Below, piece after piece: positions 924-35,828 of a stretch of DNA of 39,017 nt. A program made the position numbers and the translations under genes. The stretch is from a phage, in sequence record PZ168289.1; one strand, given 5' to 3'. The first letter of the stretch is position 1, and each line of letters starts with the position of its first letter. Below the pieces are notes generated by a model that was given only the letters and a program-made list of their open reading frames with translations, did not search any database and had not been told where the DNA came from.

Positions 924-984
924 CTTGAATCTCCTCTTTAAGTTAAGACTAAAGTCTATCTTATAGTCATATCTTAGGTCCTAA

Positions 985-1007
985 AGTCCCTATAGTGATA
1001 GTTTAGT
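985..1007 (-). promoter_or_regulatory. phage RNAP promoter (gene 6.5 upstream)
   Basis: Plus strand CCTATAGTGATAGTTTAG at 989-1006 = minus 5'-CTAAACTATCACTATAGG-3', same -7..+2 core as T7 CACTATAGG. Confidence 0.75.
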
Positions 1008-1133
1008 GTTTCACCTATGGATGACTGTTGGATTTATAGGATATGACTATCGGTTAGACTCAGTGTTTAGGACGGTTGTTCGACCCGAACCACTTGTACA
1101 TGCAGTAAATGGCCAGAAGTCCGACCCAGTAAA

Positions 1134-17100: not shown

Positions 17101-17205
17101 CTATCGGCGCACATTAAGAGTTTATCCAGATTGTTAAAGAGCATTCGCGTTGGCTGTCGTCGCCGTGCTATCCCGTTTCAGTGTTGGGACTCACTAATCT
17201 TGCTT

Positions 17206-17242
17206 GCCGTATAAGTTACTACAGTCAAACCAGCTTGTCAAT
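17206..17242 (-). promoter_or_regulatory. candidate host sigma70 early promoter 3
   Basis: Minus-strand TTGACA (plus 17236-17241), 17-nt spacer, TAACTT (plus 17213-17218); layout resembles T7 A2/A3. Confidence 0.35.
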
Positions 17243-17459: not shown

Positions 17460-18093
17460 TTAAATAATATTGATTGAGCTATCGTCGGCCCCATAGTGTA
17501 AGAGGATATAGTCTTTGACTAACATGTCTTTGACCTTAAGTCTATAGCTGTGTGTCGATTAACTGTAGGCCTTTGACTGTAGGCGTTGGTGTCTTATGGT
17601 TGTGACTTATGGTTGTGACTTATGGTTGTGACTTATGGTTGTGACTTATGGTTGTGACTTATGGTTATACAGATAGAGACTCAGAGGCAGACCAATAGTC
17701 CCTACCTATCGTCTCCACCACCACCGATAGTCATGACCTATCGTTGACTTGAGGTATTTACAGCCGGTCCAACCTTATGATAGACTGGGGTAGGGCCTTT
17801 GGTCTGGACTTAAAGAGGGCCTATGGGGAGACTTGAGGTTCTTGAACTGTGAGATGTGGTCTCAAACTTTTGGTCCAAAACTCATCGTCCCTACTGTAGG
17901 ACACAGCCACTGTAGGTCAAGGACCGTAGGTCAGGCGACACTAGGATAGACCAATAAGTAGGATGACCCTAAGTGAGCTTCTATTAAGGTGTTACCTAAA
18001 GTCCTTGACTACAGTAGCTAAGGTCAGTAGAGTGAGTCTTTATCCACGTACTGACCTTAGGTCTTCCGCTCATGAATCGTTACCATGATTGCG
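17460..18093. repeat. ORF-free genome-terminus region with dispersed short repeats (likely holds the collapsed terminal repeat / concatemer junction)
   Basis: No ORF of any size with an RBS; recurrent short motifs (TAGGTCA/TGACCTA variants, TGTAGG); lies between the last late gene and the early promoters, where the T7 ends and terminal repeat map. Confidence 0.5.
17593..17670. repeat. tandem array of a 13-bp unit CTTATGGTTGTGA (5 perfect copies plus degenerate flanking copies)
   Basis: Perfect copies at 17593-17605, 17606-17618, 17619-17631, 17632-17644, 17645-17657; partial copy 17658-17670; in the ORF-free genome-end region. Confidence 0.9.
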
Positions 18094-18252
18094 TTAATTA
18101 CACTGAGACACCAGAGAACATACGAGAGTCTCGACCCACCCGACCCACTGACTTCCAGCAGTAACGCCAGCAGCAAGTAGAACAGCAGCAAGAAACCTGT
18201 ATGTAGCTCGATTGGTCGCCAGAGCTTTAAGTACAGCTTTGGTCTTTGCCAT
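18094..18252 (-). CDS. gp19.5-like small membrane protein
   Basis: 52-aa ORF hand-translated (MAKTKAVLKALATNRATYRFLAAVLLAAGVTAGSQWVGWVETLVCSLVSQCN); AGGAGG 10 nt upstream; last gene after terminase, downstream of promoter 18433-18455. Confidence 0.5.
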   Translation of the reverse strand: MAKTKAVLKALATNRATYRFLAAVLLAAGVTAGSQWVGWVETLVCSLVSQCN

Positions 18253-18432
18253 ATGCTACATACCTCCTGTATCTATGGTCGGTGACTATCTGTATTGGAG
18301 GGATTATGATTAATATCACCCTCCTTCCATCGGTGCAAGCCTTAGGTAAGAACTCGGAGTCTGCCTCCTAAGGTCTTGCATAAAGTCTGCATATGTATAT
18401 TCACTACAGTAATACTATAAGTAACCGGGGGT

Positions 18433-18455
18433 CTTCCCTATAGTGATAGTTAAGT
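18433..18455 (-). promoter_or_regulatory. phage RNAP promoter (phi-OR-like, after terminase, before gp19.5)
   Basis: CCTATAGTGATAGTTAAG at 18437-18454. Confidence 0.7.
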
Positions 18456-18549
18456 CCAAACTCCTTGTAAAACAGTAGGTTAGACTGGTAGTAACTATAG
18501 GTTACTAACCGCGTATTCATGCAGCTTTCACCCATAGTTATTCATTCAG

Positions 18550-23478: not shown

Positions 23479-26400
23479 TCTTGATGTGGATGCCTTGCTC
23501 CTCAAACGTTCCAAGCAACAGCTTCTGGGTAATTGGGTCGTTCGGAACCAGCTCACGGAACGTATTATACATCCCGGTCATGTAGTCACGCTCGTTGACG
23601 CGAGTATCAGCCTTGAGGTAGCCAGCCAAGTTGTAAGCCGAAGCGCCAACGTTAGCAGCATATCCGAAAGCTGGAACCTGCTCCAAGAAGTTACCAACAA
23701 CATTCATAACAGGGTCACTTGTAGCCGCACCATACGCGATGGCACGTTCAGGCTGCTCTGTAGGCGAACGAGGTAGGATAGACGAACGGAGCATCTTAGT
23801 GTCCTCATACCCAGCGATGCCACCCAGAATGTTAGCTACCCCAAGTGGGCCACCCAGATGTGAACTACGGGACAGAGCCGCATATCCAATCATCGTCGGG
23901 TCCAGAGCTTGCTTGAGGTACTCACGGTCTCTGCCATCCTGCATAGCGTAAGCCTTGACGTGAGCCTGAGCCATGTAGTAGATACCAGCCAGACCCATAG
24001 ACATCACGGTAGATAGAGCAGCATCCATCGCTCGGTTGTTCTTCGTGGCGTTATAGAAGGTTCGCATGGTTCGCCCGTTGATGGACTTGATGACGAAGTT
24101 CTTAAACTGAAGGACAGTCTTAGCTAGAGGGCCATAAGCCTTGGCATCCATGTTTGACAGCTTGTGGGGCCGGAGTAACGTTTCGTCAGCGATGGTGTCA
24201 CCCATACGCCACAGGTCCATAGCCCTTGGGTCCTGACTGAACGCCTTCTTATCCTTGATGGTATACTTCCCGTCTGGACCACGAGTCACTGACTCACGGA
24301 TTAATGACTTAATGCCCTTCCACTGCTCGTCAGATATACCAGCGGTCTTCAGCCAGCGGTCATCGAACTTACGCTTACTACCAGTCAGGCTATGCTCCAC
24401 GATGTCAGACAGGAAGCCTTGACGTCCAGCATCTAACAGGTAGTTGGTCGTACCGTTGAGAACTTTAGTGAACGGAGAGCGTACTGCGAGTTCACCAGTG
24501 TAATACTTGGCAGTCCCCAGAGCTGTAGCTGTACCACGACCGAGGTCACTGTAAGACCGCAGACGGTCAATGACATCCTGTTTAGATGGGCGTATTGAGT
24601 CATCAAGTTCCTTACCAAAGATAACATTGTGCAGGTCCTTAATCTCTGAGGCCCCAACCTTCTTGTTACGGAAGGCTAGGTCACGGAAAATTGGGACTCC
24701 ATGCAGCATTGCACGAACGTTACCACGGGCCAGCATACCACCAATCTCCGTTAAGTTCTGAACACCCATATAGGCATTCTTAGCGAAGAACGATAGGTCT
24801 GTCATTGTGCGCATCACGGTAGCGAAGGCTGCATCGTCAGCACCATCACGTCGAGCACGACCAGTTAGAATCTTCAGGGTGTCACGCAAGGTAGATACTT
24901 CACCTTTCAACTTTCCGTCATCACCAGCCTTGTTCATCATGGTCTCAACCAAGTCCTTCATTTCTTTCGTTGTCTTGCCTGCACCAGCCATAATGGCAAT
25001 GTCACCATTAACTCGACGGTTGTATGCCGGGACAATCTTGTCCATGTCCCACTCCCGCAGGTTGTTGACACTGAAGGTTTGACCATTAGGAAGAACTATT
25101 GACATATCGCTGTCGAACAGGTTACGAGCCTCAAGGAAGCTGTTGTTCTCCAGACCAACCAGACCATTGATGTTCTCTTCCATTACGGATGAACGCTCGA
25201 ACTGCTCGGTGTGAGAGATACCATAAGCCTTATCGTTGGCGTACTTATCGACCGCAGCCGCAAGTCCTTCTGGAGTCAACGTAGGGTCAGCCTCTAAGAG
25301 TGCCTCGTCCACACGTTTCTTGACCTCAGGTCGAGACGCATAGCTGGTCAACCATGACTTCTTGATGGCCTCCTGCAACGCCTCTGGACTCCCAAGCTCC
25401 TTGATGTACAGCTCCTTCATCTGTTTGCTATACACATGAGGGACGTAGGTTCCCTTGAAGCGGCTACCCGGAAAGATAGACTGAGCGTCTGGCCGACCAA
25501 ACATAGCTGGGTTCTCCATCATCTCACGCTTGGCGTCAAACTGGTTCTTCAGTAGGTCATAGACTTTCAGTTCTCCCGGAGTCAGTTCAGCCTTCAGGTT
25601 TCCGCTACCATCTTCGATAGCCATAGACACACGCTGGTAGATGTCCTGACGGAATGCACCAGAGTCTCGCCAGAATGCTGTCTGGAAGTACGGGTCCTTT
25701 AGTGCCTCAGTAACCGCATCGTCGATGTCGTTGTATAACCGATGGTCCACAGCACGAAGTCTCTCGAATACGTCTGACGCAGTGGTCCCGATTTTACCTG
25801 AGGACCCTGATTGCATACCAGTCGGTGAACGTACTAAGTCAGCAGCTACTCCACGAATCTCAGGGTTCTCAGACCGAAGCAGCTTCAGACCAATCTCGGT
25901 AAGTCCACCAAGGTTCACACCAGCAGCGGCACGTTCAGGCTCAATCACTTCGTCAAAGACTTGACGTGTCTTAGGGTTCAGAGGGTTCTCACCAATCAGG
26001 ATTGAACCATCCTCCAGTCGTACACTACCCGGCTCATTCGGAACGTCAGCGAATTTAACGCCTTGATGACTAAAGGTCTGCTCACCTTCCTGAATAGGGA
26101 GACGAGACAGGTCCTGACCATCAACGTTACGAGCTGTCTCACGAGCTTCCAGACGTGTAGCTGGGCCAGCGAACTCATTAGTGTTGCGACCTAAGGCTCT
26201 GCCTAATCCATCAGCGATAGCAGTCATGCCCCCACCAAAGAGAGCACCGCCAAGGATAGCTTCAGCCACATGAGCATCACCACCAGCCACTGAGGTACGA
26301 GCCATCTCGGACACACCAGCCAGTGCTCCAGATTGAGCAGCCACGGTGAACATCTTGTTGACCAGCTTACCACCTTTACCAACCTGTCCAGCGATAGGAA

Positions 26401-30678: not shown

Positions 30679-31133
30679 ACGTCCTCCTTAGAGATAGTGA
30701 ATAATTGAAAACGCTCACCAGTTACCGGGCTGATAGTCCAATCATCATGGAACTTAGCCCCAAGCAACTTCAAGAATTTAATGTGAGACTTATTGCCTGA
30801 CCACACGTAGTTCCAGATGGTCCCGTATTGGTCTAACATTAAGTCCCTGTACTCAGAGATACGCTTTATGAACTCTCGCTTCTCTTTAGGTCTCAGCTTG
30901 TTGACCAGACCTGAAGTCAAGAACCATACGTTATCCCCTTGGTTTCCACCATAGGCAAACACTTCGCCTACACCGTTCGTTAAAACCACAGATGACGGAG
31001 ATAGGTGCTTAAGCAATCTTTCAGAGAGACCAACGGTTGACCCATAGTTTGCTTTGCACTCATTAACATCATCTGCTGAAAGATGCCACAGAAAGTAGTG
31101 GACATCTGGTTCCGTAGCCTTGCGAATATACAT
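30663..31133 (-). CDS. internal virion protein A / assembly protein (T7 gp13 position)
   Basis: 156-aa ORF directly downstream of promoter 31163-31185; synteny. Confidence 0.65.
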   Translation of the reverse strand: MYIRKATEPDVHYFLWHLSADDVNECKANYGSTVGLSERLLKHLSPSSVVLTNGVGEVFAYGGNQGDNVWFLTSGLVNKLRPKEKREFIKRISEYRDLMLDQYGTIWNYVWSGNKSHIKFLKLLGAKFHDDWTISPVTGERFQLFTISKEDVCVNP

Positions 31134-31162
31134 AAAGTCTCCTTATAACCTTAAGGGCCTAT

Positions 31163-31185
31163 AGTCCCTATAGTGATAGTTAAGG
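31163..31185 (-). promoter_or_regulatory. phage RNAP promoter (gp13 upstream) inside an inverted repeat
   Basis: CCTATAGTGATAGTTAAG at 31167-31184, flanked by GGGCCTATAG (31155-31164) and CTATAGGCCC (31191-31200). Confidence 0.7.
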
Positions 31186-31209
31186 TAAATCTATAGGCCC
31201 TTCAATAAG

Positions 31210-33567
31210 TTAGACGGAACGAGCTTTCTTAGCGTATGACGCCTCCCAGCCACACCCAACGATTGACACTGGGGTAGGATAGTCGGACTCTAAGGTTAGA
31301 CTCGTGGTTAATGCGTTACCATTCATAGCGAAGCGATACTGCCCGTCACCAATGTTTGTAGTCCCGATGGTTTGCTGACCAAGGGTGTACCCGTTGAAGG
31401 TATTCACGAACTCCCGCTCACCATTTCTGACAATGAGTCTCAGAGCGCCAGTGTCTTTGTAGTTGACCCAAGCCCGACGAAGCTGTAGACGACCAGTGTC
31501 TTCCGACTGAGTGCCCCTATCATCTTCAATCTTAATCAGGAACCGTGAGAACTTGTAGGACATCAGATAGGGCCGTCCGATGAACACTGTGCGTCCTGAC
31601 CAATCGCCGTTGAGGGTAACCACAGTAGAGATACTAGTCAAGTCCCCAAGGTCCACATAAGCACCCTGACTGTCAATCAGATAGTACCGACCGGGAGACG
31701 GAGCGCTGCCACCATAAGCAGCACCAATGTCAACCGTAGTCTTATGTGTGTCAACGTTGTATGAGCCAATTGGTATTACCATAGACACCTTGGAGTCAAC
31801 GTGGAGTCTATACGGCTCTAATGGAAAGTCAGTTGCCTCCTTGATGAACTTAAGGTGCTCAAGGTCCACGCCGCCTTGGTGCTGACGAACAATGAACATG
31901 GTAGAGCCAATCGACGCAGACGCCAGAATCTTATCAGCTTTAGGGAACTCCCAGTGCGACCAAGAGGCTTGAAGCTGTACGCCGTCCTTAAACAAGAACT
32001 TGTAGATGTAGATTCGGTTGTATGCACCTGTAGAGTTGACGCAGATGTAGTTCTCAGTACCTGTACCTTGAATATCAAACACCCCGTTAGGGATATAGGA
32101 CAGTACGTGACCAGTGGTATCATCGGCATCCTTCACGTCAGACACATCTGCTACAGCGAAGTATCGCTTAATGCTGGTGAATGACCCACGAGGTGCTGAG
32201 AAGAAGACTGAGCGTCCTACAGCGAACGGTCGGGCATTATCTCCTAAGGCAAACTCTGAGCCTACATCAAGCTGGATAGACTTCGAGGTAAGGACCCCTG
32301 AGCTTGTCATCACGAACTGCACCTCATCTGACCAAAGTAGTAGCTGCTCGCTAAACGGAACGGCATACTTAAGGATTGAGATTCTAGGGTGACTTACAGC
32401 TACGTCAATAGGATCATCATCACCTAATGTCGCCACACTCTTAGGGAAGAACGCAAAGTAGCTGGCTGAACGGCTCATGATTACGTTCTCGCCTGACAAG
32501 AACCCCAGCCTATTCCTGTAGAAGAACACATCGTTAATTGTAGCATCCACGAAGCTAGGCATAGGGTTTGTGTCATCATTACCAGCACCACGATTAGACC
32601 AGTCCAGAGTCTTGAACTCAAAGGAGCCATCAGGCTGTCTGACCAGAGCATGTGGCATTGTGGTGGCATCGAAACCAGTGACAACTCCCGGCTCCACTGT
32701 CTCCTTCCACGTCTTAGTGCTGGAGTCATACATCACGTAGTATTCATCGGCGCTACTGTTTGTCTCACCTTGAATCTTAATGATATACCCATTAGGAGCT
32801 GCAAGAGGTAGTTTAGAGATTGTCTGCACAGTGTCTAGGACTGGGCTTATTAGCTGGTTAGCGTAGCCATCCTCCGTCTCCACTGAGTTAATGTCAGTCC
32901 CTGAAGGAGCTGTGATTAGCAGGAATCCAGACCCAAGGTCGAACGTGAAGGTAGGGTAAGCAGCAACAAGAAGGTCTCTCAGAGCCGCACCGATAGCCTG
33001 AGCATCAACCTTAGGAGGGTCATTCTCGGCATCATTACCTGCTGGCAACTTATGCTCTACCTTAACGCCTCCATTTATTCCTACCTTAAGGGTGCGACCA
33101 TACTGTCCACCACGCAGGTTAATTAAAGCACGAGCTTTACGATTATAACCAGAGTGTGCCTTCTCGCTCCCACCTTTGACGACAACCTTACGGTTAACGA
33201 CGAACGTATAGTCTGCCACGGTAACGACACGGATGTCATCTCGTGGGTTGGAGGACTTAACGTAATCTACCGCACCGGACACTGAGTATTGATTGCCACT
33301 CAAGTCAACTACCTGAATGTTGGACCCATTGAACACGATGTAATACTGCTCATGCTCGTCACGGTTAATCAGGTGGAACTTAGGGTTACTCCCAACGTCG
33401 ATGTTAAGACGTCGCTTGAAGACTGTAGGTGGACGCTTCTGGAGGCCATCACTCTCTGATGACCAGCAGTTAACCTGTGCCTCGCCTTGGTCTGAGAACC
33501 TCAGTATATCAGGCTGCTGGCTAATGCCACCTTTAAGATTTTTTATGCTTTGTGTGATAAGCGGCAT
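31210..33567 (-). CDS. tail tubular protein B (T7 gp12-like)
   Basis: Collinear with T7 gp12 (SQSIKNLKGGISQQPD, GLQKRPP, INRDEHEQYY, VTVADYTF.VNR, GRLQLRRAWVNY, IGCGWE). Confidence 0.96.
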   Translation of the reverse strand: MPLITQSIKNLKGGISQQPDILRFSDQGEAQVNCWSSESDGLQKRPPTVFKRRLNIDVGSNPKFHLINRDEHEQYYIVFNGSNIQVVDLSGNQYSVSGAVDYVKSSNPRDDIRVVTVADYTFVVNRKVVVKGGSEKAHSGYNRKARALINLRGGQYGRTLKVGINGGVKVEHKLPAGNDAENDPPKVDAQAIGAALRDLLVAAYPTFTFDLGSGFLLITAPSGTDINSVETEDGYANQLISPVLDTVQTISKLPLAAPNGYIIKIQGETNSSADEYYVMYDSSTKTWKETVEPGVVTGFDATTMPHALVRQPDGSFEFKTLDWSNRGAGNDDTNPMPSFVDATINDVFFYRNRLGFLSGENVIMSRSASYFAFFPKSVATLGDDDPIDVAVSHPRISILKYAVPFSEQLLLWSDEVQFVMTSSGVLTSKSIQLDVGSEFALGDNARPFAVGRSVFFSAPRGSFTSIKRYFAVADVSDVKDADDTTGHVLSYIPNGVFDIQGTGTENYICVNSTGAYNRIYIYKFLFKDGVQLQASWSHWEFPKADKILASASIGSTMFIVRQHQGGVDLEHLKFIKEATDFPLEPYRLHVDSKVSMVIPIGSYNVDTHKTTVDIGAAYGGSAPSPGRYYLIDSQGAYVDLGDLTSISTVVTLNGDWSGRTVFIGRPYLMSYKFSRFLIKIEDDRGTQSEDTGRLQLRRAWVNYKDTGALRLIVRNGEREFVNTFNGYTLGQQTIGTTNIGDGQYRFAMNGNALTTSLTLESDYPTPVSIVGCGWEASYAKKARSV

Positions 33568-34485: not shown

Positions 34486-34527
34486 GCAAAAACCCCTCAA
34501 GCACCCGAAGGCACCCAAGGGGTTTCA
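34486..34527 (-). terminator. T-phi-like terminator after capsid gene 10B
   Basis: Minus RNA AACCCCUUGGGUGCC-UUCG-GGUGCUUGAGGGG-UUUUUG: 13-bp stem rich in G-U pairs, UUCG loop, U tract; immediately after the predicted 10B stop, as T-phi is in T7. Confidence 0.8.
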
Positions 34528-35703: not shown

Positions 35704-35805
35704 ATGATAATTCTCCTATTCAATTGAAAGATAAAGTTTATTACTTACTGTACGCCCAATCCGTATGGACTGAAGTAATAGGGAAACCCTGAGTCTATCT
35801 CTTGG

Positions 35806-35828
35806 TCTCCCTATAGTGATAGTTTAGT
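35806..35828 (-). promoter_or_regulatory. phage RNAP promoter (major capsid upstream)
   Basis: Perfect core at 35810-35827; ~105-nt leader to capsid ATG 35703. Confidence 0.8.

What the first reader, a model, noticed from the sequence alone, without database searches (positions are those of the whole stretch)
31155..31200. Promoter embedded in a perfect 10-bp inverted repeat between tail tubular B and gp13
GGGCCTATAG and CTATAGGCCC flank the gp13 promoter core. In read-through RNA from upstream this forms a hairpin with the promoter sequence in its loop. T7 has RNase III site R13 at the same junction, so this may couple processing of upstream transcripts with initiation at the promoter.
Basis: partly seen in the sequence, partly recalled or inferred. 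Interest (0 to 1): 0.4.

Follow-up and report, generated by a model that had tools for sequence, protein, structure and literature searches.

The report
Late promoter inside an RNA-processing hairpin
In this K1F-like relative of phage T7, the promoter in front of gene 13 sits in the loop of a conserved 12-bp RNA hairpin, which is most likely this phage group's version of the RNase III processing site "R13" already annotated around the same promoter in phage T3, so it is a real but ordinary feature.

Summary
The inverted repeat is a perfect 12 bp (window 31191-31202 / 31153-31164), not 10 bp. The genes lie on the minus strand. The repeat brackets the phage-RNA-polymerase promoter between gene 12 (tail tubular B) and gene 13.

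The window is a Kayfunavirus (K1F-like), and the K1F intergenic region is identical. Read-through RNA folds into a 12-bp stem with a 26-nt loop that holds the promoter (z = -3.8). A transcript started at the promoter contains only the 3' arm.

Of 69 distinct gene 12-13 spacers from T7-like phages, 65 place this promoter in a hairpin. The arms differ between genera but still pair, often through G·U. The T3 GenBank record annotates such stem-loops as "RNase III recognition site R13" overlapping promoter phi13, and "R6.5" enclosing phi6.5.

The geometry here, with the promoter wholly in the loop, matches T7/T3 R6.5 rather than their R13.

Best explanation: a host RNase III site that cuts read-through transcripts and spares promoter-initiated ones. 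Cleavage was not shown for this phage.

It is a new member of a known kind, and interest is low.

The parts
31208..31212 (-). 5' strand of a weak lower stem (UAACU). It overlaps the gene 12 stop codon TAA (31212..31210).
   Evidence: The MFE fold pairs UAACU with GGUUA below a 5-nt/2-nt internal loop. Pairing is kept in 97.8% of cells across 18 Kayfunavirus spacers, with U-A in 13 and U-G in 5 at one pair.
31191..31202 (-). 5' arm of the upper stem, AAGGGCCUAUAG, at -34..-23 relative to the inferred start site. It lies upstream of the promoter, so it is present only in read-through RNA.
   Evidence: The core GGCCUAUAG is invariant in 18 distinct Kayfunavirus spacers except for one A-to-G change that gives G·U.
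31163..31185 (-). Phage RNA polymerase promoter phi13, -17..+6: CCTTAACTATCACTATA|GGGACT. The inferred +1 is G at 31168. Positions -17..+4 lie in the 26-nt loop; +5 and +6 (31164, 31163) are the first two bases of the 3' arm.
   Evidence: It matches the promoter repeated at least ten times on the minus strand. The same site is annotated as a K1F-consensus promoter in phage ASO2B. The start site is inferred from the T7-type consensus and was not mapped.
31153..31164 (-). 3' arm of the upper stem, CUAUAGGCCCUU, at +5..+16. It is present in both read-through and promoter-initiated RNA.
   Evidence: It is invariant across the Kayfunavirus spacers. ACTATAGG occurs twice in tandem (promoter -6..+2 and +4..+11), which suggests the arm arose by duplication of the promoter core (sequence).
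31146..31152 (-). 3' side of the internal loop (AA, 31152..31151) plus the 3' strand of the lower stem (GGUUA, 31150..31146). This is the predicted zone of RNase III cleavage.
   Evidence: Structure. The cleavage position is an inference by analogy with T7 sites, which are cut on the 3' side at the base of the upper stem (from memory of Dunn & Studier 1983). It was not tested.
31131..31144 (-). Shine-Dalgarno AAGGAG (31144..31139) and the gene 13 start codon ATG (31133..31131).

Best explanation
This is the Kayfunavirus counterpart of the T7-group RNase III processing site R13, built around the late promoter phi13.

Genes 11 and 12 have no promoter of their own in this phage. RNA that reaches the gene 12/13 junction therefore comes from phi9 or phi10 by read-through of the terminator after gene 10. 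That RNA contains both arms and folds into a 12-bp upper stem with the promoter sequence in a 26-nt loop. Below it are a small internal loop and a short lower stem.

Host RNase III is proposed to cut at the base of the upper stem on the 3' side, around 31146-31152. This would leave the gene 11-12 message ending in a protective 3' hairpin. It would also release a gene 13-16 message whose 5' end lies a few nucleotides from that of the promoter-initiated transcript.

RNA started at phi13 (+1 = 31168) begins inside the loop. It carries only the 3' arm and cannot form the stem, so it escapes cutting.

Shown here: the repeat, the promoter, the predicted fold and its stability, its conservation, and the annotated equivalents in T3.
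Inferred: cleavage by RNase III, the cut position, and the effects on RNA stability.
For: Anatomy and stability of the hairpin:
- 12-bp perfect inverted repeat with a 26-nt loop.
- Hairpin z = -3.76, with 0 of 200 shuffles as stable. The 101-nt context gives z = -2.25.
- The promoter-initiated 5' end has no significant structure, z = +0.23.

Transcription context:
- Promoter identity.
- No phage promoter lies between phi10 (35818) and phi13 (31175), and a terminator-like hairpin plus U-run lies after gene 10 at 34511-34494. Read-through RNA must therefore cross the site.

Public annotation and relatives:
- The T3 record annotates 'RNase III recognition site R13' overlapping 'T3 promoter phi13', and 'R6.5' enclosing 'T3 promoter phi6.5'.
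- T7 phi13 folds with an upstream arm paired to the promoter core, z = -4.1.
- T7 and T3 R6.5 have the same geometry as here. The promoter sits in a loop of about 26 nt, and the upper stem starts AAGG...CCUU above an internal loop and a lower stem.

Conservation across T7-like phages:
- Of 69 distinct gene 12-13 spacers (80 IMG/VR loci), 46 pair an upstream arm with the promoter core and 19 hold the promoter in the loop. Only 2 show neither pattern; 1 is mixed and in 1 no promoter motif was located.
- 49 of 53 distinct promoter regions have z < -2.
- Arms differ between genera yet still pair, with several pair types at most positions. 13% of pairs are G·U, which pair only in sense-strand RNA.

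Conservation within Kayfunavirus:
- The arms stay constant while the promoter specificity region in the loop is replaced in three lineages, L054, L056 and L059.
- The one arm substitution seen gives G·U.

Parallel in the same window: phi6.5 is also enclosed by an 11-bp plus 7-bp helix.
Against: - No experimental RNA ends are available for any Kayfunavirus.
- Within the genus the stem shows no compensatory double change. Nine of 12 pairs never vary, and two basal pairs are simply lost in most relatives. Within-genus support is therefore conservation only.
- The 3' arm lies in the initially transcribed region. It could be conserved for transcription or 5'-UTR reasons.
- The helix is short for RNase III. 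It has 12 bp plus a 5-bp lower stem containing a G·U, where classical substrates have about 20 bp. The lower stem is weak.
- Half of each arm is the palindromic promoter hexamer CTATAG, so part of the complementarity comes free with promoter-like sequence.
- No Rfam family exists to test against.
- The exact T7 cleavage coordinates used for the analogy are recalled from memory. They could not be verified in the records shown.
Confidence: 0.7

Rival explanations
1. The hairpin is functional in RNA but is not an RNase III site. It acts only as a stable structure in read-through transcripts. It could block 3' exonucleases after cleavage elsewhere, or modulate gene 13 translation on read-through RNA.
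For: The hairpin is stable and conserved. The helix is shorter than classical RNase III substrates. In this window a 4-bp UUCC/GGAG pairing with the Shine-Dalgarno is predicted in read-through RNA.
Against: The positional equivalents in T3 are annotated as RNase III sites. The UUCC segment is not conserved among Kayfunavirus spacers. A pure barrier would not need the promoter inside it, yet that placement recurs across genera.
Confidence: 0.12
2. The repeat is an evolutionary by-product with no function of its own. The arms are remnants or duplications of the palindromic promoter core CTATAG(G).
For: CTATAG is self-complementary and occurs three times within 44 nt. ACTATAGG is tandemly duplicated at -6..+2 and +4..+11. 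There are no compensatory changes within the genus.
Against: The 5' arm lies outside the promoter. It is nevertheless invariant while neighbouring bases, and even the promoter specificity region, change. The flanking GGCC/GGCC extension is not promoter sequence. Equivalent hairpins with unrelated arm sequences exist in 46 other spacers.
Confidence: 0.08
3. The repeat acts at the DNA level. It could be a cruciform or a binding site for a dimeric protein that regulates phi13.
For: In this phage both arms are perfect Watson-Crick complements, so a DNA palindrome is possible.
Against: A 26-bp spacer strongly disfavours cruciform extrusion (general knowledge). One relative has A-to-G in the 5' arm, which keeps pairing only as G·U in sense RNA. 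In other genera 13% of pairs are G·U. No candidate protein is known.
Confidence: 0.05
4. The hairpin is a pause or termination signal for the phage RNA polymerase at the end of gene 12.
For: A stable hairpin directly follows the gene 12 stop codon.
Against: No U-run follows the stem, which is followed by AAGGUUAUAAGG. The terminator scan finds nothing here, although it does find the site after gene 10.
Confidence: 0.03

Closest known systems
RNase III recognition site R13 overlapping promoter phi13 of phages T3 and T7
   Same: It has the same position, in the gene 12-13 spacer, and the same promoter (phi13). A sense-strand hairpin has its 5' arm upstream of the promoter, so only read-through RNA has both arms. 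It is annotated in T3 record AJ318471. The T7 fold is, and R13 is listed as a T7 cleavage site in PMC6938266.
   Different: In T3 and T7 the 3' arm is the promoter core itself (about -8..+7), and the 5' arm uses G·U pairs. Here the whole promoter is unpaired in the loop. The 3' arm is a separate copy of CTATAGG plus CCCTT at +5..+16, and all pairs are Watson-Crick.
RNase III recognition site R6.5 enclosing promoter phi6.5 of T3 and T7
   Same: It has the same geometry. The upper stem is 10-12 bp and begins AAGG...CCUU. The promoter lies in a loop of about 26 nt, and the 3' arm starts at about +5..+7. An internal loop and a lower stem follow.
   Different: It lies at a different junction (gene 6.3/6.5). 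The lower stem is much longer there, at 9 bp against 5 bp here. This window has its own phi6.5 helix at 952-1061.
T7 early-region RNase III sites (for example R1.1), the classical substrates
   Same: They have the same general form: an upper stem, an internal loop and a lower stem in a polycistronic phage mRNA (general knowledge, not tested here).
   Different: Those sites are not built around a phage promoter, and they have about two helical turns of duplex.

Membership tests
T7-group RNase III processing site of the R13/R6.5 type (stem-loop around a late promoter) | Lies in the gene 12-13 spacer and overlaps promoter phi13 | tested here: met
   ORFs, the promoter and the T3 annotation of the same arrangement.
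T7-group RNase III processing site of the R13/R6.5 type (stem-loop around a late promoter) | Stable double-stranded stem in the sense RNA, at least about one helical turn, with an internal loop and a lower stem | tested here: met
   The upper stem is 12 bp, z = -3.76. The internal loop is 5/2 nt and the lower stem is 5 bp. The lower stem is weak and contains a G·U.
T7-group RNase III processing site of the R13/R6.5 type (stem-loop around a late promoter) | Pairing maintained in relatives despite sequence change | tested here: inconclusive
   Within Kayfunavirus there are 0 compensatory changes, 9 of 12 pairs are invariant, and there is one G·U. Across genera the arms differ and still pair, but those pairs come from each sequence's own predicted fold.
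T7-group RNase III processing site of the R13/R6.5 type (stem-loop around a late promoter) | The promoter-initiated transcript lacks the 5' arm | tested here: met
   The inferred +1 is at 31168 and the 5' arm is at -34..-23. The promoter-initiated RNA has no significant fold. The start site is inferred from the consensus.
T7-group RNase III processing site of the R13/R6.5 type (stem-loop around a late promoter) | Cut by host RNase III in vivo or in vitro | not testable with these tools
   No transcript-end data for Kayfunavirus were found in four literature searches on RNase III sites in T7-like phages.
T7-like phage RNA polymerase promoter (K1F type) | 23-bp match to the genome's own repeated promoter consensus, correctly oriented upstream of a late gene | tested here: met
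   TCACTATAGGGA has 6 hits against 0.1 expected. Ten full promoter copies lie on the minus strand. The site is annotated in relative ASO2B with reference to the K1F consensus.
Intrinsic or T7-polymerase class I terminator | G+C-rich hairpin followed directly by a U-run | tested here: not met
   The stem is followed by AAGGUUAUAAGG, and the scan reports no terminator here.
Any curated Rfam RNA family | Covariance-model match at the gathering score | tested here: not met
   There were 0 matches in the whole window. Rfam appears to hold no model for T7 RNase III sites, so this says little.

The most novel reading that the evidence does not exclude
Moving the 3' arm off the promoter core onto a downstream duplicate (ACTATAGG-G-ACTATAGG) may be an adaptive redesign rather than drift. 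It would free the promoter from having to serve both as a polymerase-binding site and as half of an RNase III helix. That would explain how Kayfunavirus lineages could swap promoter specificity (three different -8..-14 regions in the loop) while keeping the processing site unchanged. If so, the site would be a natural example of modular separation of a promoter from an overlapping RNA element.
Probability: 0.15. Interest if true: 0.35.

Novelty: new member of a known kind. Interest (0 to 1): 0.15.

Why it matters
For annotation, K1F-like phages carry an unannotated equivalent of R13, and also of R6.5. The K1F record lists only coding genes.

For phage engineering, edits in the gene 12-13 spacer of K1F, which is a therapy and engineering chassis, should keep both arms. 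Otherwise processing of late read-through transcripts may change.

For biology it adds little. A promoter inside an RNase III stem-loop has been part of the T7/T3 picture for decades. The only new points are the R6.5-like geometry at the R13 position and the constancy of the arms across promoter-specificity swaps.

Tried and rejected
- Rfam scan of the whole window: no hit.
- T7 records NC_001604, V01146, LR745708 and AY264774 were inspected for an R13 feature. As shown by the tool they list only the promoter and coding genes. The recalled cleavage coordinates (R13 27281, R6.5 18563) therefore remain unverified memory.
- Literature searches for papers describing the phi13/R13 overlap or RNase III sites in K1F gave only a T7 paper listing R13.
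- The K1F genome paper, the T7 refactoring paper and the Chen & Schneider promoter paper are not held.
- The Kvp1, Citrobacter-phage and T7-like RNAP papers do not discuss the hairpin.
- A duplex-energy test of promoter flanks against random genome positions was not discriminating. phi13 falls at the 6th percentile.
- Within-genus covariation: none.
- Terminator reading: rejected because there is no U-run.
- An endonuclease VII gene inserted near this region in Hafnia phage yong1 lies between genes 13 and 14, not in this spacer.
- A first attempt to extract promoter-anchored sequences picked false motifs and was redone.

Full report
**What is in the sequence**

The window is a circularly permuted genome of a K1F-like T7 relative (genus Kayfunavirus), with the genes on the minus strand. 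A 1.1-kb query around the finding matches 219 phage records, the best at 98% identity.

Read on the minus strand, the order of features is as follows:
- gene 12 (tail tubular B, 33567..31210)
- its stop codon TAA (31212..31210)
- CUUAUUG
- the 5' arm AAGGGCCUAUAG (31202..31191)
- a 26-nt loop
- the 3' arm CUAUAGGCCCUU (31164..31153)
- AAGGUUAU
- the Shine-Dalgarno AAGGAG (31144..31139)
- the gene 13 ATG (31133)

The perfect repeat is 12 bp rather than 10 bp.

The loop contains CCTTAACTATCACTATA|GGGA. Together with the first two bases of the 3' arm this makes the 23-bp promoter, which is one of at least ten copies of the phage polymerase promoter in the window. In the close relative ASO2B the same site is annotated as a K1F-consensus promoter. 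With +1 at 31168, inferred from the T7-type consensus, the 5' arm spans -34..-23 and the 3' arm spans +5..+16.

**Is it more than chance?**

- Only two perfect 12-bp inverted repeats with a loop of 40 nt or less exist in the 39-kb window. Dinucleotide shuffles give a mean of 0.12.
- A bare 10-bp repeat would be unremarkable, since shuffles give a mean of 1.5.
- The 50-nt hairpin has z = -3.76, with 0 of 200 shuffles as stable.
- Half of each arm is CTATAG, the palindromic promoter core. Part of the complementarity is therefore promoter-like sequence. ACTATAGG is tandemly duplicated at -6..+2 and +4..+11.
- A looser duplex-energy test against random positions was weak, at the 6th percentile.

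**Conservation within the genus**

The K1F prototype has an identical spacer.

In 18 distinct Kayfunavirus spacers the core arms GGCCUAUAG/CUAUAGGCC never vary, apart from one A-to-G change that gives G·U. The flanks do vary. Three lineages also have a different promoter specificity region in the loop.

There are no compensatory double changes. The within-genus evidence is therefore conservation, not covariation. The two basal pairs are lost in most relatives. In the variants with CCCTTT, a different 5-bp extension (UUGAA/UUUAA) replaces them.

**Conservation across the subfamily**

A gp13 profile retrieved 80 loci from IMG/VR, giving 69 distinct spacers. They classify as follows:

| Arrangement | Distinct spacers |
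|---|---|
| Upstream arm pairs with the promoter core itself (T7 type) | 46 |
| Promoter held unpaired in the loop (all but one Kayfunavirus-like) | 19 |
| Mixed | 1 |
| No such hairpin | 2 |
| No promoter motif located (gene 13 start mislocated) | 1 |

Of 53 distinct promoter regions, 49 fold with z < -2.

The arms differ widely between genera and still pair, for example in T7, T3, Berlin, Jarilo, K11/KP32-like and gh-1-like phages. Most positions show several pair types. 80 of 616 pairs are G·U, which pair only in sense RNA. These pair counts come from each sequence's own predicted fold.

**What is known about such sites**

The T3 GenBank record annotates two relevant stem-loops:
- 'RNase III recognition site R13' (25443-25480), overlapping 'T3 promoter phi13' (25457-25479)
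- 'RNase III recognition site R6.5' (17135-17206), enclosing 'T3 promoter phi6.5' (17160-17182)

R13 is also listed as a T7 RNase cleavage site in PMC6938266. T7 phi13 folds in the same way, with z = -4.1.

T7 and T3 R6.5 have exactly the geometry found here. The upper stem starts AAGG...CCUU, the promoter lies in a loop of about 26 nt, and the 3' arm starts at +5..+7. An internal loop and a lower stem follow.

This window's own phi6.5 promoter is also enclosed, by an 11-bp plus 7-bp helix at 1040-1061 / 952-973. The other eight promoters are not enclosed in this way.

**Mechanism**

No phage promoter lies between phi10 and phi13. A terminator-like site follows gene 10 at 34511-34494, and none follows gene 12. 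Genes 11-12 are therefore made by read-through, and that RNA must cross the hairpin.

I conclude, at about 0.7 confidence, that host RNase III cuts read-through RNA at the base of the upper stem. The gene 11-12 message would then end in a 3' hairpin. RNA initiated at phi13 starts inside the loop, lacks the 5' arm and has no significant fold (z = +0.23), so it would escape cutting.

The cleavage itself, its position and its effects on stability are inferred by analogy.

**Rivals**

The rival readings are a structural hairpin without RNase III, a by-product of promoter-core duplication, a DNA-level palindrome, and a polymerase terminator. Each is less likely, for the reasons given under the rival explanations. 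There is no U-run after the stem, and no Rfam family matches anywhere in the window.

**Verdict**

The one refinement is that the geometry is R6.5-like, not R13-like.

This is a new, apparently unannotated member of a long-known kind. The K1F record carries only coding genes. Interest is low.

Noticed in passing
window 952-1061 (minus strand): The phi6.5-equivalent promoter (CACTATAGG at 997, +1 about 990, between gene 6 and gene 6.5) also lies inside a long helix. AUAGUCAUAUC (1050..1040) pairs with GAUAUGACUAU (973..963), and the helix is extended by GAGUCUA (1061..1055) pairing with UAGACUU (958..952). K1F has the same arrangement. This is probably the R6.5 equivalent.
   Followed up: partly
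window 18018-18029 / 18049-18060: This is the only other perfect 12-bp inverted repeat with a short loop in the window (CTAAGGTCAGTA / TACTGACCTTAG on the minus strand). It lies downstream of the last promoter (18445) and a small ORF, near where the linear genome's right end should be. Its function was not examined.
   Followed up: no
window about 18000-18500 and the window ends: The assembly is circularly permuted relative to T7 gene order. Late genes run 38782 down to 18550, and early genes run from about 16800 down to 1. The true genome ends and terminal repeat are therefore internal, at about 17900-18450.
   Followed up: no
window 35780-35814 (minus strand): The phi10-equivalent transcript begins with a strong 5' hairpin (UAUAGGGAGACC...GGUUUCCCUAU). 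It resembles the 5' stem-loop of T7 gene 10 mRNA.
   Followed up: no
window 34494-34511 (minus strand): A terminator-like hairpin followed by GTTTTTGCTT lies between gene 10 and gene 11. This is the likely Tphi equivalent. Genes 11-12 have no promoter of their own.
   Followed up: partly
loci L054, L056, L059 (= L018, L021, L024), gene 12-13 spacer: These Kayfunavirus-like phages keep the same hairpin arms and the same +1 region. Their promoter specificity regions differ (ATTACACCCTCACTATAGGGA and ATTTAACACTCACTATAGGGA, against CCTTAACTATCACTATAGGGA). This implies a change of polymerase-promoter specificity within an otherwise conserved spacer.
   Followed up: partly
loci L061, L063 and L064 (Dickeya-phage-like), gene 12-13 spacer: These are exceptions to the promoter-in-hairpin rule. 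A separate GGCCCUUCGGGGCC hairpin lies upstream of the promoter and another lies in the 5' UTR. No arm spans the promoter.
   Followed up: no
locus L121 (Hafnia phage yong1) 1073-1474: An endonuclease VII gene is inserted between genes 13 and 14 in an otherwise 97% identical region. It is probably a mobile nuclease gene.
   Followed up: partly
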